The position numbers were made by a program. Source: an uncultured cyanobacterium (lineage in GTDB: Bacteria > Cyanobacteriota > Cyanobacteriia > Phormidesmidales > Phormidesmidaceae). Taken from it: DNA of 64,000 nucleotides. Positions 24,001 through 33,000 of this stretch are shown here, one piece after another; position 1 is the first letter of the stretch; every line of letters begins with the position of its first letter. Location of the stretch: contig CAWBZI010000007.1 in the NCBI GenBank assembly GCA_963793265.1, forward strand, positions 128,001 to 192,000. Direction: 5' to 3'.

Positions 24001-27000
24001 TGCTTGACCTGCTGCTTAAGCATAAAAATCTCCTCAATCGCGACGCAAGGGCGCACTTGACTGATTGGATGGGTTTCAATCTGATTAGAGAGAATCTCGA
24101 CCTCTTGCGCTGGTGAAATATAGCCCAGTCGAAACTGCAAAGCAAAGCGATCCATTTGGGCCTCGGGCAAGGGATAAGTCCCGCGAGCGTCGATTGGATT
24201 TTGGGTCGCGATTACAAAAAAGGGATCTCGCAGTTGATTCAGCGTTCCGTCTATGCTGACCTGTGACTCGGCCATAGCCTCTAGCAGAGCCGATTGGGTA
24301 CGAGGGGAGGCTCTATTGATCTCATCGGCAAGCACAATATTGGCAAAGATGGGGCCTTCATGAAAGTGAAAGGTGCGTTTTTCAGGATCGAGAATAGAAA
24401 CGCCGAGAATATCGGAGGGTAGTAGATCGGGCGTGAACTGGATACGCTTGAATGTAGCGTCTACAGAGAAGGCAAGAGCCTTAGCGAGCGTCGTTTTGCC
24501 AGTACCTGGATGATCTTCTAATAGCACATGGCCGCTGCTAGCGAATGCGGCTAGCAGCTTACGAACTGCCGCAGGCTGACCTTTAACGACCTGCTGAATA
24601 TTGTCAGACAGACGGCTGTAAATAGCCTGACCCGATAGAACAGCCGGAGCCGACGTAGATGAAAGTGCCATGGCAGAAGATTGAAACCAGGCGTAGCATA
24701 CCCAAATTAGAGCAAGCCGTCTTGATATAGCAAAAGTACGGATGAATTCGCACTTTTGCGCGCCACTATTCCGTCTCTAGCTGTTGCACAGAGGGCATTT
24801 GCGGATAGGCTAGCTGCTGCCGGGCGCAGGCTGCTTTTATCCGCAAAACCAAATCTGTTTTATACACAAACTCATTGCGCGCGTCCATCGGATACGACTT
24901 AAGCTTTAGCTTTGTTGCCCAGGGATGCTCTGAAACAATTACTACCACTGGCAGCTTTAGCTGAGTGTAGCGACTGCTGTAGGCCGCCTGATACAAAATT
25001 TCAACCGCCAAATTAATATCAGCTCCGTGGGCAAAGTAAAATGCGGTTACCACCTGAGCCTCAAGCTGACCGCTGTTTGAGTTTGAAATTGGCTCTGTCC
25101 AGGTGGCGCTATGAGGAATCGTAACCGCATTGTCATCCGGGGTTTGTAGCTGCAATCCCCGCAGGCCGTAGTCGGTAACTTCGCCGTAGTGCTCACCGAT
25201 TTGAATGCGATCGCCCATCCGAAAAGGCCGCTCAACTAAGTTCACAATGCCCGCCACCACGGAGCTGGCGTAGTCTTTAAACACGAAGCCCAGCGCCACA
25301 AAAATTGCGCCCGAGAGCGCCAGCACATTTGGCCGGGTGAACTTAATAAACAATGTAAGTAAATAAACGCCTGCACATAAAAGAATAAACCCTCTGATCA
25401 AAGGCACAAGCTGCTTTGTCCGCAATCTATTACGACGCGCCACCTGTTCCGAAAAGTTGTCTGCCGCTGTTTTAATCACCAGCAAAATGCCGTAGGTGAT
25501 GATGAACACTAATATCGCGTGAACAATCGTTCCGACACTAATATCATGGAGAAAATCTCCGATATTATCGATGCCTAAAAAGTCAGACTGAGCTAGCAAA
25601 GCCGCGCTTCTAACAGGAAAAAGGATCATCATCTATATTTCTCCAATCAGAAAGTTGTTGTTCTTCAGCTCGCTATAGAGCTTAGGGTAGTGAGCCGGGT
25701 GCATCGCTAGCCGCCGCCCTCGCTGAATGATGATGCCCTCGCGCTTGAGCACCTGGAGGCGATCTCGTATTTTCCTTTCAGCCTCACCCAGGCTCAGCGC
25801 CAAATGAGCCGTGGTCATCTCTTCATGAATCATCAGCGAATGTAGCAAATATCGATCCATCACCTCCAACGTCATCAGGCTTGGCAAAGCCGGTTTTGCA
25901 GGTAGCAAAATCGTTTTCCCTTCAGCCGCAGAGGCACTTTCTCTTACCCGCAAAGACTTTAGCCATAGCCGCGCCGCCGTAGCGCCAATGCCCGACGATA
26001 GGTTACTCAGACTAGCCCAACAGCGATCACTCCCCGCCTCCAACGTCACAGGCGGATCGTCGTCTGCTCCCTCTAAATTCATGACCGTCAGCGCATCGCT
26101 AAAATAAGGCAGCAGCCACGCCTTCAAATCCTCACCCTCTAGCTCTGGCAGTCGGATCGTCTGCTCCAAATACGCCCCTACCTGACACACCCGCTCCAAA
26201 AAGGCCCACGCCCAATGATTGCAGCCAAACACCCAAAATCGGGACGTATCCCGCGTACTGAGCGCCTGCAAATACTCAATGCCCTCCCAGCCCTGAATAC
26301 AGCGTAAAAAGCACTGATCTAATCGTGGTATCACCACAATTGTCGGCAGATCAATGTCCGTAGGCGCGTCATCAGGCTCCAGCTCCCTTTTAATATGCTG
26401 CGGAATCTCTAGCGGGTCGAGCGGACGCTGATACTTTTTTAGGCAAAACTGCACGTGATAGTCTTCAAACCCAGTTTGCAAGCTCTCCTTCAAAATAGCT
26501 GTCACGTCTTCTACCGGCCTGTTGAGCACCACTAGGCTATTAGGGGCGACTTCTGGGTTTGCCTGCCAGGCTGTGATCGCCTGCAATATGGCTGCTTTCA
26601 CTTCAAGCTGACAGGGCGCAGGCGCAGGCAGCTTACCGGCCTTACTTCCTAAGGGGTTAAAAATAGCGGGCGGTACGATAGTCAGCACTTCATCAGCCTC
26701 AGCGCTCGGAGCCGCCTCGCCCCATGCGGCCATCGCTTGCACAGCGGTTCGTAAAAAAGATTGAATGCCCACTGTCAAAGCCCTATCTAGATCATTTGCA
26801 CACGCTTTAAACGTTTGTACCCTCTCAGCAAGCATTTTCTACCAATGCGGGCATATCTCAAAGGATTACGAGCAAAAATCTCTATGTTCGAGGTGTATTA
26901 ATTGCTACTGCGGGCAACGGGTGCAGCCGTTGTTGTAATTCGAGTGCGGCTTTGAGACTTCCAGTGCTGATAGCGAAGTAAGGGAAAGGCGGATACTCGT

Positions 27001-30000: not shown

Positions 30001-33000
30001 AGGGTTGCTATCTCTCTGTTTTCAGAGGTGTTAGAAATTTGGGGAATGAATAGTATTGAGGCTGAGGCGATCGCATTAAACAAAACGCCGCCTAAGGCTT
30101 TAATCCGAATAGTCCAGGGCGTTAGTTTGCCGCTATCAACCCAAGGGTAAGGGTCGTTGCTAAGTTCAGGAAAGAAGGTAGATGCAAATGGGACACATGA
30201 TTTTGCAACGTTGAGCAAGCTTCTATTTTCAAGAATATTAGAGGCTTTTATAAAAGATAAATCTCGGTCGAGAATAGCAGTGAGTAAAACATGACCTAAG
30301 CCATGAATTATGATAGCAACGTTCCAAATAACGCGGCTCAAAAGGCAAACGATAATGATGTCTGGAGCTATGCCTTCAAAAACTATCGAACAGAGAAACA
30401 TTGACCTACCTTTGAAAATAAGATTTTTCAGTCTACCGTTGAGCACTCTAAACACGTCTTGATTTTGCTCAGCAAGCGTGGAAAATCAATTGGCTTAGTG
30501 TCGTAGTCATCACAGCCTGCCGACAGCGCTTTTTCGCGATCGCCCGCCATAGCATGAGCCGTCAGCGCAATAATCGGAATACGGCTAGTCTCAGCATCCG
30601 CCTTAAGCTGCTGCGTCGCCTCCCACCCATCCATCACTGGCAGGCTAATGTCCATTAATATGACCTGAGGCTGTTCTGAAACCGCCTTAGCCACACCGTC
30701 TGCACCGTCAGCCGACAGCACAACGTCATAACCTACACGCTTTAACCGGCGAGAGAGCATATCGGAGTTCAGCTCATTGTCCTCAACCAACAAAATTCTG
30801 ATAGGTGTATCTATAGACTCTCCGTCCGCAGACGAGCGTTCTTCAGGGGCTTCAGAGGCTGCTGGTATTTGTTGAAAATAATCTGTTTGTTTAATAGCAG
30901 TTGCTTGCTGATTCTGACTGGCTTGCGCTAGCTCCTTTTGCAGCGTCATCACCTGCTGCTTCAGCGCTTTTTGCTGTTCCTTTAGCTGCGATCGCTCCAA
31001 ACAGCCCATCACTTTTGCACGCAGCATAACCGACTGATAAGGGCGCGTCATATAGTCTGTCGCACCAATTGCGATCGCCCGCGCAACCGCAGCACGATCT
31101 TCAGGGATAGCCATCATCAAAACAGGGATATGCTGCCAGTCAGCTCTAATTTGCGCTAACACCTCTAGCCCACTGATATCTGGCATATTTATCTCTAGCA
31201 AAATGAGATCAAAAGGCGCAAGTGCGATCGCCTCTAAAGCCTGCTGGCTAGAGGATGTAACGGTTACTTGAGCACCCTGATCTTCCAAATGACGAGAGAG
31301 CAGTACGCCGTTGTACGCATCGTAATCAACGACTAAAATTCGACTGCCTTCTATATTGCCTTCTGCGTAGAGCGTTGGAGAGGTCGGTTGTATGGAAGCC
31401 GTAGCACTTTCAACATCTAGTGAACTACCACCGAGCGCCTGAATAGACTCAAAACGCTGCTCTATAGTTTTATCGAGGTCATTTACTTTAGCTAGCAAAT
31501 CCTGCGCTGAAGCATAGATTCGCTCTAGATCAGGAACAAACTCACCGGGCGCTTCTTCTATCAAAATCTCGCAATAGCCAACAATTGTGCTCAACGGCGT
31601 CAGTAGCTCCCGCCTTAGCGTTGGCCCAAGTAGATCAATTTCTTGCTGTTGAATCTCTACTAAAGCCGGATTCAAAACAGCATGGGAGAGGCGCAGTAAT
31701 TGCTCTCCAGACGTCAGCAGCTTTTGTAAGTCGCTCTGCAAGCTCTCTTTTTCACTCACGTCCTGCCGAGCAAGCAGCCCTAAAAGGAGATCGCTATAGC
31801 CAATAATGCTACAAATCGGGGGATCGAAGTCTTGACGGCGAAGCTGAGTTCTCAGGGCTCGCTGCTGGCGATCGCGATCGGGCCGAGCTAAGTCGGTAGG
31901 TACCTTCGGAACCTCTGGGGGTGAAGCTACCGGCACGATCAATTGAGTCATTTTGGCGATGAGCTGCGGCAGGTCAACGGGCTTTGTATCGTAGTCATCA
32001 CAACCGGCAGCGATCGCCTTTTCCCGTTCGCCCGCTAGCGCATCAGCCGTCAGCGCAATCACAGGAATAGCCTGGGTTTCAGGGTTTGCCTTAATCTGTT
32101 TTGTGGCCTCCCAGCCATTCATAATAGGCAGGTGCAAATCCATCAAAACTAAATCGGGCTGCTCCAAGCGTGCTTTCGTAACGGCCTCAGCGCCATCAAC
32201 CGCCATCACCACCTCGTAGCCTTTGCGTACCAACCGGCGAGAAAGCATGTCTCGATTAATTTCGTTATCTTCAACTAAAAGAATTTTAGACATGGTGCTT
32301 GCCAGTGGAAAGTTTTGATTCTGAAAGTTTTGATTTTGTAGATGCGATCGCTTCATCACTTGCCGACGGTTCAGCAATCCGCTGGCTCATAGCATCAATC
32401 GCTTGAGCCAAAGGATGCTCAGGATAGCGCAGCGAGAAAACCTCACTACTGGCTAAATGCATCAGCGCCTCAGAGAACGGTAACACCTTACTCACTGGCA
32501 CTTCATAAGCAGTTTCTAACTGTTGCCGGTAGGCAGGCACATCAAAGGCCGGTAGCGCTTTATTCACCACTAGCTGCATCTCTTCTACCGAAAGCATTTT
32601 TGCCAGCTCAACCAACACAGAAGTCCCCTGATAGTCTTGATAGTCTGGGCGCAGCACCACCACTAAAAGATTGCACATAGAAATTGTCTGTAGCGTTTCC
32701 TCACTAATGCCAGGATGCGTATCAATAAATAGGTAGTCTAGCTGCAGATCGCCAATAAGATCGTGAAAGCCATCGGTCAGCTTCTCTTTTTGATAGCCCT
32801 CTCGGGTGATGCGCGTGATATCGCTAGGCTTGGTGCTCGCAGGCACTAGATAGATAGCCCCGTTAGCATTCACACTATTCGGCGGCGAACTCTCTTGCTT
32901 TAGTAAATAGCTCAGGTCTTGAGCGGCCTCATAAAGCGTACTCTCACCCCATAGATAGCTGTTCAGCGTGTGGCCCAGCGCCCGGTCTTTTAGGCCAAAC

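What a model noticed while it worked through the whole genome (the two positions that open the first line are those of the whole stretch)
26898..30401. Unannotated 1,170-residue GlmS-like Ntn-amidotransferase/SIS membrane enzyme whose catalytic Cys is masked by an N-termi [...]
g04963, with no Pfam, NCBIfam or Swiss-Prot row, is a remote glucosamine-6-phosphate-synthase (GlmS/GFAT)-fold protein: Ntn glutaminase domain, two SIS domains and added membrane helices. The nucleophilic Cys must be N-terminal to work; in a fifth of homologues the protein starts Met-Cys, but here and in most others the Cys sits behind a membrane domain with a conserved HGxGH motif, so activation would need processing.
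Evidence so far: Model pLDDT 85; Foldseek top hits human GFAT-1 (E 4.7e-18) and E. coli GlmS (TM 0.74 on target) at 11-12% identity. GlmS motifs map to C167-GNFG, H268-Y-R-Y-A-T, H316-N-G-D, D352 and S-x-S-G-Q-T. Of the best 120 homologues, 21 start MCGNFG, 94 have an internal CGNFG and 91 of these an upstream HGxGH; one distant homologue hits Peptidase_M50 in that region. 1,355 representatives at E<=0.001, many as parts of 1,500-4,600-residue proteins; 8 of 101 family genomes. A canonical glmS (g03719) is also present.
(Added by a program. Inside this text positions count along the whole contig: contig position 128,001 is position 1 of the stretch shown here. "Call 12" and the like, gene names such as g00115 and contig names such as C1 are that model's own, and its searches are not shown. 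The text may have been shortened before it was handed on; [...] marks where a part breaks off. The agent that wrote the report below was given it as the finding of a first reader that could run no searches.)

Follow-up and report, generated by a model that had tools for sequence, protein, structure and literature searches.

The report
Protease-capped GlmS-like membrane amidotransferase
This cyanobacterial gene encodes a glutamine-using, sugar-phosphate-binding membrane enzyme whose catalytic cysteine sits behind a small zinc-protease-like membrane domain that probably cuts itself off to switch the enzyme on, an arrangement not found in the papers searched.

Summary
Confirmed: window 26898-30401 (-) encodes 1,167 aa with no Pfam hit; residues 167-1159 superpose on E. 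coli GlmS (Z 33). Residues 1-166 have the site-2-protease (M50) fold: the top 4 of 48,161 chains are all S2Ps, and His33/His37/Asp153 are invariant. (1) Distant relatives keep HExxH. In cyanobacteria, Gly34 goes with a new Glu58 (122 of 123), and one nested revertant regains HExxH and loses Glu58, so the base may have moved rather than vanished. (2) Glutaminase residues are conserved in masked forms too. (3) Met-Cys forms arose or were lost at least 9 times, each starting exactly at the Cys, which marks Asn166-Cys167 as the cut site. It is not a GlmS member: the Glu488 position is Ser/Ala, and a canonical glmS is present. Best reading: a zymogen whose S2P-like leader cleaves itself off in cis (0.45); main rival, Cys-driven autoprocessing (0.3). 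The product is unknown. The gene ends a haem-c two-component operon. This scan reported the same family four times before, on Omnitrophota-type DNA. No cleavage has been shown.

The parts
26898..30401 (-). Whole gene, 1,167 aa (P0001): S2P-like leader, class II glutaminase domain, SIS1, membrane hairpin, SIS2
30405..30413 (-). Shine-Dalgarno-like AAAGGTAGG before the ATG at 30401
   Evidence: (upstream sequence)
29904..30401 (-). Leader domain, residues 1-166, site-2-protease (M50) fold; about 23 residues shorter at the first membrane helix than most relatives
30291..30305 (-). H33-G-L-G-H37: HExxH equivalent with Gly at the catalytic Glu position
30228..30230 (-). Glu58: candidate relocated general base, or fourth Zn ligand, in the loop equivalent to the S2P re-entrant loop
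   Evidence: spatial position inferred, not measured
29943..29945 (-). Asp153, third Zn-type ligand, 14 residues before the Cys in 122 of 123 HGxxH forms
29904..29912 (-). Residues 164-166 (C-F-N), immediately before the proposed cut; a beta-strand in the leader-only model, low confidence in the full model
29901..29903 (-). Cys167, the masked N-terminal nucleophile (aligns with GlmS Cys1)
28602..29903 (-). Class II (Ntn) glutaminase domain, residues 167-600: R203, H268, R270, T273, N317, G318, D352
   Evidence: (1xff Z 28.2, rmsd 2.2, 237 aligned)
27792..28598 (-). SIS1, about residues 602-870: phosphate loops S684 and S735-x-S737-G-x-T740; family-specific E682 and E802
27507..27704 (-). Hydrophobic helical hairpin, about residues 900-965, inserted between SIS1 and SIS2; predicted membrane anchor of the mature enzyme
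26901..27494 (-). SIS2 and C-terminal tail, residues 970-1167: K996 (GlmS K485), S999 (at E488), H1020 (H504), R1154 (at K603)
30428..32377 (-). Upstream operon gene: three receiver domains plus HisKA
32286..34502 (-). Operon gene: HisKA, receiver, HAMP, MinD/ParA-type ATPase
34535..37042 (-). Operon gene: Tll0287/DUF3365 haem-c sensor hybrid histidine kinase (CxxCH)

Best explanation
The protein is made as an inactive precursor. Its 166-residue leader is a zinc-binding site-2-protease-type membrane domain (His33, His37, Asp153). It binds the stretch just before Cys167 as an added beta-strand, as S2Ps bind substrates, and hydrolyses the Asn166-Cys167 bond in cis. Glu58 stands in for the HExxH glutamate that this lineage replaced by Gly. 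The cut frees the alpha-amino group of Cys167 and gives an active class II glutaminase that stays on the membrane through the 900-965 hairpin. As in GlmS, ammonia is then passed to a sugar phosphate held by the SIS domains, but the acceptor chemistry differs because Glu488 is gone and two new glutamates (E682, E802) line the site. Shown: folds, conservation, repeated precise loss or gain of the leader. Inferred: the cut, zinc binding, the role of Glu58, and the acceptor.
For: Leader fold: the top 4 of 48,161 chains are K. koreensis RseP (Z 9.5, rmsd 4.0, 131 aligned), A. aeolicus RseP (7.3), M. jannaschii S2P (7.1) and SpoIVFB (6.5); the profile aligns HGLGH to RseP HEFGH and GGVLFN to GGPLFN (E 0.015). 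H33, H37 and D153 are invariant in 53 of 53 and in 123 HG plus 52 HE rows (the two His were part of the row labelling). E58 occurs in 122 of 123 HG rows against 2 of 52 HE rows. P0350, nested among HG+E58 cyanobacterial rows (enclosing branch 0.996), has HELGH and Lys at the E58 register. The only two strands in the leader-only model are 87-89 and 164-166, which fits beta-sheet augmentation as described for SpoIVFB (PMC11486902, passages). Cut site: no Met before the Cys in 236 internal forms, and 1 of 78 such codons is a possible start codon, so internal initiation cannot expose the Cys. Met-Cys forms need 16 changes on a 230-row FastTree; starred branches force at least 9 on a 32-row IQ-TREE. 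In 12 of 13 short-form loci an in-frame stop lies 1-15 codons upstream, and none has a leader relic. Active site: H268, R270, T273, N317, G318 and D352 are invariant in 230 of 230 rows. dN/dS is 0.16-0.39 for the leader and 0.06-0.19 for the core, where computable.
Against: No experiment shows cleavage or zinc binding. The leader's Z-scores (6.5-9.5) are in the range the tool calls common for helical domains, and Foldseek found no match at E<=0.001. Proteobacterial HGxxH forms (12 rows) have a Tyr, not a Glu, in that loop, which suits a ligand or space-filling role as well as a base. P0143 has HExxH and also a Glu aligned to position 58, so the exclusion is not strict. The E58 pattern rests on few independent events (3 HG/HE changes, plus the P0350 reversal). 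Class II amidotransferases are described as removing their own short propeptides (PMC9140057, passages), so no protease is strictly needed. This window's leader lacks about 23 residues. The AU test did not reject one clade of short forms (p 0.11), although KH, SH and RELL did (p 0), and those rows were picked after seeing the first tree.
Confidence: 0.45

Rival explanations
1. Same zymogen, but Cys167 cuts the bond itself by the usual Ntn N-to-S acyl shift. The leader's zinc site is structural or only a Lewis-acid helper, Glu58 or the proteobacterial Tyr is a fourth ligand, and the leader acts as a membrane-bound pro-domain that delays or gates activation.
For: Autocatalytic removal of a few residues is described for class II amidotransferases (PMC9140057), and B. 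subtilis PurF loses a short N-terminal peptide (PMC3261824). This genome's PurF has its Cys about 30 residues in from the first ATG. The HExxH Glu was lost more than once while the three ligands stayed. A Tyr can take the loop position. Residues 163-166 are poorly ordered in the full model.
Against: HExxH is intact in 52 of 230 rows across Omnitrophota-type, proteobacterial and eukaryotic branches, which is hard to explain for a purely structural site. The E34/E58 swap with a reversal suggests that one carboxylate is needed. The residue before the Cys varies widely (Y, N, C, F, H, G, R, L).
Confidence: 0.3
2. The long form is cut in trans by a host protease (regulated intramembrane proteolysis under control of the adjacent two-component system); the leader is a pseudo-protease recognition module.
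For: The genome has about four other M50 genes (5 matched stretches). The nearest upstream ORF is a two-component gene in 17 of 72 loci that have one, a Ser/Thr kinase in 4 and a Crp-type regulator in 6 (the loci include duplicates).
Against: The fixed Asp-to-Cys spacing (14 in 122 of 123) and the invariant metal ligands are better explained by a cis reaction. No protease gene recurs next to the family.
Confidence: 0.07
3. The long form is never cut: it is a non-catalytic membrane sensor that binds glutamine and a sugar phosphate, and only the Met-Cys forms are enzymes.
For: Signalling genes are frequent neighbours and no amino-sugar pathway cluster was seen. Glu488 is missing. Some relatives carry EF-hands or WD40 repeats.
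Against: Catalytic and oxyanion-hole residues are fully conserved in masked forms. No clear case of a replaced Cys was found among 67 rows dropped by the motif filter, with 3 unresolved. Long and short forms alternate at the same operon slot among close relatives. Only 5 core positions, mostly conservative changes, are relaxed in short forms.
Confidence: 0.1
4. On the separate question of the product: it is a membrane-bound second glucosamine-6-phosphate synthase in which E682 or E802 replaces Glu488 as the base.
For: The whole GlmS architecture is kept (596 of 608 residues aligned, rmsd 3.4), with K996, H1020 and the phosphate loops. The K603 position is Lys in 52 and Arg in 61 of 123 HG rows. 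One giant homologue carries a Glucosamine_iso domain after the module (P0131).
Against: The Glu488 position is Ser or Ala. A canonical glmS is present here and in 5 of 5 carrier genomes tested. Identity is only 10-15%. The gene is patchy (16 of 173; 0 of 400).
Confidence: 0.25

Closest known systems
GlmS / GFAT (glutamine:fructose-6-phosphate amidotransferase, TIGR01135)
   Same: Ntn glutaminase plus two SIS domains in the same order and fold (Z 33); Cys1, R26, H71, R73, T76, N98, G99, D123, K485 and H504 equivalents and the phosphate loops (E. coli numbers other than those are recalled).
   Different: 10-15% identity; 166-residue membrane leader; membrane hairpin between the SIS domains; large insertions; Glu488 replaced by Ser/Ala; Lys603 position Arg or Lys; new E682 and E802; far below the family cut-off (13.8 vs 418 bits); coexists with glmS.
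Site-2 proteases, family M50 (RseP, M. jannaschii S2P, SpoIVFB)
   Same: Fold; His-x-x-x-His plus a distal Asp; GxxN helix motif; a substrate-like strand in the model. SpoIVFB also removes a pro-sequence from its substrate.
   Different: Minimal domain fused to the N-terminus of its presumed substrate; HGxxH here; no PDZ or CBS domain found; no free-standing copy found among proteins of 95-371 aa. The S2Ps in the papers seen act in trans.
Propeptide-bearing class II amidotransferases (B. subtilis-type PurF; glutamate synthase, recalled)
   Same: The Ntn Cys is internal in the precursor and has to be exposed by cleavage; this genome's PurF is of that type.
   Different: Their propeptides are short; here the leader is a folded, metal-site-bearing membrane domain under purifying selection.
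Viral leader autoproteases such as pestivirus Npro (recalled) and potyviral P1 (abstract)
   Same: An N-terminal protease that cuts at its own C-terminus to create the next protein's N-terminus; an analogy of logic only.
   Different: Unrelated folds and catalytic types; no viral match was found for this family.

Membership tests
GlmS/GFAT | Class II GATase plus two SIS domains | tested here: met
   Model 167-1159 aligns to E. coli GlmS 1-608, Z 33.3, rmsd 3.4, 596 aligned
GlmS/GFAT | Score above the TIGR01135 cut-off | tested here: not met
   13.8 bits against 418
GlmS/GFAT | Cys1 N-terminal after Met removal | tested here: not met
   The Cys is residue 167 and is preceded by Asn; met only in the Met-Cys relatives
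GlmS/GFAT | Catalytic Glu488 | tested here: not met
   K996-L-F-S999-L-S-Y aligns with K-L-K-E-I-S-Y (low hhalign probability, register anchored by K and S-Y); Ser or Ala in the family
GlmS/GFAT | Catalytic His504 | tested here: met
   H1020 aligned with GEMKH (weak alignment); His in 214 of 230 rows, most others gaps
GlmS/GFAT | Catalytic Lys603 | tested here: inconclusive
   Arg1154 here by the end register; Lys in 52 and Arg in 61 of 123 HG rows; pLDDT below 50 at 1152-1156
GlmS/GFAT | Makes GlcN-6-P from Fru-6-P and Gln | not testable with these tools
   needs an assay
Class II (Ntn) glutamine amidotransferase domain | Ntn fold with Cys nucleophile, Arg, NG oxyanion motif and Asp | tested here: met
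   1xff Z 28.2, rmsd 2.2, 23% identity; hhalign probability 99.1 against cyanobacterial-phylum GlmS; residues conserved
Class II (Ntn) glutamine amidotransferase domain | Free alpha-amino group on the Cys after processing | not testable with these tools
   inferred from Met-Cys relatives
Site-2 protease (M50) | S2P membrane core fold | tested here: met
   Top 4 of 48,161 chains are S2Ps, Z 6.5-9.5; modest scores, supported by the motif alignment and by Peptidase_M50 hits in 5 of 53 members, best E 6e-4
Site-2 protease (M50) | HExxH with catalytic Glu | tested here: not met
   HGLGH in this protein; HExxH in 52 of 230 relatives
Site-2 protease (M50) | Distal Asp as third zinc ligand | tested here: met
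   D153 invariant in 53 of 53 and 175 of 175; metal binding itself not tested
Site-2 protease (M50) | Pfam PF02163 above cut-off | tested here: not met
   no Pfam hit for residues 1-175
Site-2 protease (M50) | Zinc-dependent peptide-bond hydrolysis | not testable with these tools
   needs mutagenesis and N-terminal sequencing

The most novel reading that the evidence does not exclude
The leader is a cis-acting site-2 protease: a self-removing intramembrane metalloprotease that creates an N-terminal Cys on a fused enzyme, with its catalytic glutamate moved from the HExxH helix to a loop 24 residues away in cyanobacteria (and back again in at least one lineage). The enzyme it releases is a new glutamine-dependent sugar-phosphate aminating activity shared by cyanobacteria, purple sulfur bacteria, Omnitrophota giant proteins and algae, and here it is the output of a haem-c, possibly NO-sensing, two-component operon. 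The same leader would give Omnitrophota giant proteins a built-in processing site.
Probability: 0.35. Interest if true: 0.88.

Novelty: new variant of a known kind. Interest (0 to 1): 0.7.

Why it matters
Both halves are known folds, but I found no paper on their fusion. If the leader cuts itself off, site-2 proteases gain a new role as cis-acting activators, and the Gly34/Glu58 swap is a natural experiment on how a zinc protease places its general base. It also bears on an open question raised for Omnitrophota giant proteins, whether and where they are cut into separate enzymes (10.1101/2023.11.21.568195, passages): this module predicts an exact cut site. The family has 1,355 clusters at 50% identity and is invisible to Pfam, and natural Met-Cys versions from close relatives give a ready control for assays. 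A self-cleaving tag that leaves an N-terminal Cys could also be useful for protein ligation. The family itself was already noted four times in this scan; what this report adds is the Glu swap, the repeated precise loss or gain of the leader, the active-site mapping and the operon.

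Tried and rejected
Internal translation start at the Cys: rejected (no Met in 236 internal forms; 1 of 78 codons a possible start). Short forms as gene-calling artefacts: rejected for 12 of 13 loci (in-frame stop 1-15 codons upstream; 51 codons in L049; no leader relic in any). Later or earlier start for this gene: the GTG at 30455 gives 1,185 aa, but the ATG at 30401 has the SD-like site and matches relatives. 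Nitrogen regulation: strict NtcA-type boxes (motif recalled) upstream in 3 of 41 loci against 1.6 expected, none before this operon; glutamate synthase genes lie beside one locus (L098) and a cyanophycin synthetase beside one (L003) among the neighbours scanned (133 and 50 ORFs, one per cluster, from a list of 202), so there is no support in this mostly cyanobacterial set. Amino-sugar or cell-wall gene cluster: not seen (same calls). Mobile element: no match in 72,556 plasmid records or in viral contigs; no viral fold match at E<=0.001. Free-standing leader domain: none at E<=1e-5 among 8,000 candidates of 95-371 aa; longer fusions to other partners were not searched. Foldseek on the leader alone gave nothing at E<=0.001. 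ESM Atlas gave M50 clusters only at 0.75-0.76, a lead at most. Global hhalign of SIS2 against GlmS failed, and an ungapped profile scan ranked the K996 helix second and missed H1020 and the tail, so the SIS2 residue mapping is weaker than the SIS1 mapping. No RNA holder was listed for the gene. The phylum-wide search with part of the MinD-fusion gene hit generic ParA/MinD paralogues in 67 of 400 genomes and was uninformative. Searches for PurF propeptide papers gave nothing direct. Supplements were not read; those of the bioRxiv giant-protein papers could not be seen and may include this module.

Full report
1. The observation. The ORF at window 30401-26898 (-) gives 1,167 aa. It has no Pfam hit, only sub-threshold glmS scores in NCBIfam and no phmmer hit in PDB. 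The closest named relatives are cyanobacterial (Phormidesmis, 76-82%). The gene is patchy: 16 of 173 genomes of the family, own genome included, and 0 of 400 others drawn from the phylum.

2. Anatomy. An AlphaFold2 model from 100 sequences has mean pLDDT 91.7, with values below 50 at 163-166 and 1152-1156. Residues 167-1159 align to E. coli GlmS 1-608 (Z 33.3, rmsd 3.4, 596 aligned), and 167-600 to its glutaminase domain (Z 28.2). A hydrophobic hairpin at about 900-965 sits between the two SIS domains. Folded alone, residues 1-175 match site-2 proteases: the four best of 48,161 chains are two RsePs, the M. jannaschii S2P and SpoIVFB (Z 9.5, 7.3, 7.1, 6.5). These scores are modest for helical domains and Foldseek found nothing significant. 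The sequence profile independently puts RseP first and aligns HGLGH with HEFGH (E 0.015), and 5 of 53 leader sequences hit Peptidase_M50.

3. The glutaminase site is kept in masked forms. From 352 sequences, 285 passed a motif filter and 230 remained after dereplication and a length filter. The filter itself selected on C167, R203 and G204, so their invariance there is circular. H268, R270, T273, N317, G318 and D352 were not selected on and are invariant in 230 of 230. In an alignment of 134 sequences made without that filter, C167 and these residues were at 90% or more. Of the 67 dropped rows, 39 were fragments or had no hit to the start of the core and 18 had the Cys-Gly by pattern; of the other 10, by eye, 5 have it, 2 start downstream and 3 are unresolved. 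dN/dS is 0.06-0.19 in the core and 0.16-0.39 in the leader, where computable in 9 pairs.

4. The cut site. Internal forms never have Met before the Cys (0 of 236), and 1 of 78 codons at that place is a possible start, so only cleavage can expose it. Met-Cys forms are real genes: 12 of 13 loci have an in-frame stop 1-15 codons upstream and none has a leader relic. They are scattered over the tree: 16 changes on a 230-row FastTree against 32 for shuffled labels, and 10 changes, 9 forced by starred branches, on a 32-row IQ-TREE. Holding them together costs 1,996 log-likelihood units; KH, SH and RELL reject that tree (p 0 of 10,000) but AU does not (p 0.11), and the rows were chosen after the first tree. 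Change counts do not tell loss from gain; loss is the simpler reading because short forms sit among long ones. Each time, the start lands exactly on the Cys. Long and short forms occupy the same operon slot in close relatives. I put the probability that the long form is cut at Asn166-Cys167 at about 0.8 (inference).

5. What cuts it. H33, H37 and D153 are invariant, and D153 lies 14 residues before the Cys in 122 of 123 HGxxH forms. HExxH is intact in 52 of 230 rows, mainly eukaryote-like, Omnitrophota-type and proteobacterial. In HGxxH forms a Glu at position 58 is present in 122 of 123, against 2 of 52 HExxH forms, many of which have Gly or Ala there. P0350 lies inside the cyanobacterial HG+E58 clade, has HELGH, and has Lys at the E58 register. 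Against a strict rule: 12 proteobacterial HGxxH forms have Tyr instead, and P0143 has both glutamates by alignment. In SpoIVFB the re-entrant loop lies in front of HExxH and binds the substrate as an added strand, and E44Q abolishes activity (PMC11486902, passages). E58 lies in the loop that follows the HxxxH helix, and the only strands in the leader model are 87-89 and 164-166. I infer, without coordinates, that the linker folds back into the cleft. This favours cis hydrolysis with a relocated base (0.45). The main rival is Cys-driven autoprocessing, described for class II amidotransferases (PMC9140057, passages; PMC3261824, passages) and suggested by this genome's PurF, with the metal site as helper or scaffold (0.3).

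6. What the mature enzyme does. GlmS uses Cys1, Glu488, His504 and Lys603 (PMC9272926, passages). Profile alignment with 29 GlmS sequences (this genome's and 28 others from the phylum) maps E682 to the Gly of the CGTS loop and E802 to the Val of EIGVA (probability 95); both are invariant where aligned. In SIS2 the alignment is weak, but K996-L-F-S999-L-S-Y matches K-L-K-E-I-S-Y, placing Ser or Ala at Glu488, and H1020 matches His504. The Lys603 position is Arg or Lys; that K603R keeps some activity in E. coli GlmS is recalled, not checked. A canonical glmS is present here and in 5 of 5 carriers tested. The likeliest function is glutamine-dependent amination of a sugar phosphate at the membrane with chemistry different from GlmS; a second GlcN-6-P synthase with a moved base remains possible (0.25).

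7. Context. The gene follows, 26 bases after its stop, a receiver/HisKA gene, itself preceded by a HisKA-receiver-HAMP-MinD gene and a Tll0287 haem-c hybrid kinase. The MinD-fusion gene was found in 4 of 173 family genomes, all four with this enzyme nearby, though only 6 candidates per genome were scored; the kinase is beside it in 3 of 4 other carriers of the genus. A SulP-STAS-cNMP gene is inserted in some loci. A signalling member of the Tll0287 family behaved as an NO sensor (10.64898/2026.02.01.703092, abstract); whether this one does is untested. Across loci the nearest upstream ORF was two-component in 17, Ser/Thr kinase in 4, Crp-type in 6 and other in 45 of 72 (duplicates included). 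Named distant members come from Omnitrophota (P0174, P0209), Thiocapsa, Thiocystis, Celeribacter, Pelagodinium beii and Closterium; most of the 30 looked up carry no name. Some carry EF-hands or WD40 repeats.

8. What is known. One UniRef entry names a relative 'glutamine amidotransferase type-2 domain' and NCBI names another 'zinc metalloprotease'. Four full-text searches for the fusion listed no paper on it. Two giant-protein preprints have no occurrence of 'M50' or 'SIS' in the main text (passages); their supplements were not seen. This scan reported the family four times before on Omnitrophota-type DNA, including the protease-like leader and the 13-residue spacing; my reading was recorded before I saw them. 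One of them proposed a link to nitrogen assimilation, which my mostly cyanobacterial loci do not support.

9. Verdict. A real, conserved, undescribed enzyme family built from two known folds. It works like GlmS in its glutaminase half but fails membership (Glu488, family score, N-terminal Cys). Its leader looks like an S2P but fails the HExxH test in this lineage. New variant of a known kind, interest 0.7; 0.88 if the self-cleaving S2P with a relocated base is shown.

Noticed in passing
window 30333-30365 (-), residues 13-23: This copy lacks about 23 residues of the first leader helix: P[ED]-to-His distance is 20 here against 42-43 in 71 of 90 relatives. It may be a step toward loss of the leader.
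   Followed up: partly
P0191 (353 aa): Starts like the operon's Tll0287 kinase but residues 109-345 match residues 544-780 of this enzyme at 71%: an apparent deletion fusion across the operon.
   Followed up: no
P0313-P0338 (proteobacterial clade): HGxxH forms in this clade carry a Tyr about 11 residues before the LLP motif, where cyanobacterial forms have Glu at -13; HExxH forms of the same clade lack it.
   Followed up: partly
P0240, P0259, P0260: Large homologues with NExxH instead of HExxH in the leader.
   Followed up: no
P0131 (2,885 aa), residues 2332-2450: A Glucosamine_iso domain follows the module in this giant protein.
   Followed up: no
L005:4416-7623: In a Microcoleus locus the Met-Cys form follows an MFS transporter, a nitric oxide synthase oxygenase and a cupin on the same strand; of note beside the haem-c sensor operon in this window.
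   Followed up: no
L098:224-11917: Glutamate synthase large and small subunit genes lie upstream of a giant homologue that reads in several pieces.
   Followed up: no
G492:C1:1833938-1836874 (L023, L025); G471 (L016): Copies broken into several frames or holding an internal TAG, consistent with frequent decay of the gene.
   Followed up: no
window 25633-26835 (-): 400-aa ORF with no Pfam family, directly before an MscS-type channel gene (24766-25632), downstream of the enzyme.
   Followed up: no
window 1-16000: Strong positive GC skew (up to 0.36) over the first 16 kb, unlike the rest of the window.
   Followed up: no
P0073, P0080; P0169, P0200: Relatives with C-terminal WD40 repeats (P0073, P0080) or EF-hand pairs (P0169, P0200).
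   Followed up: no
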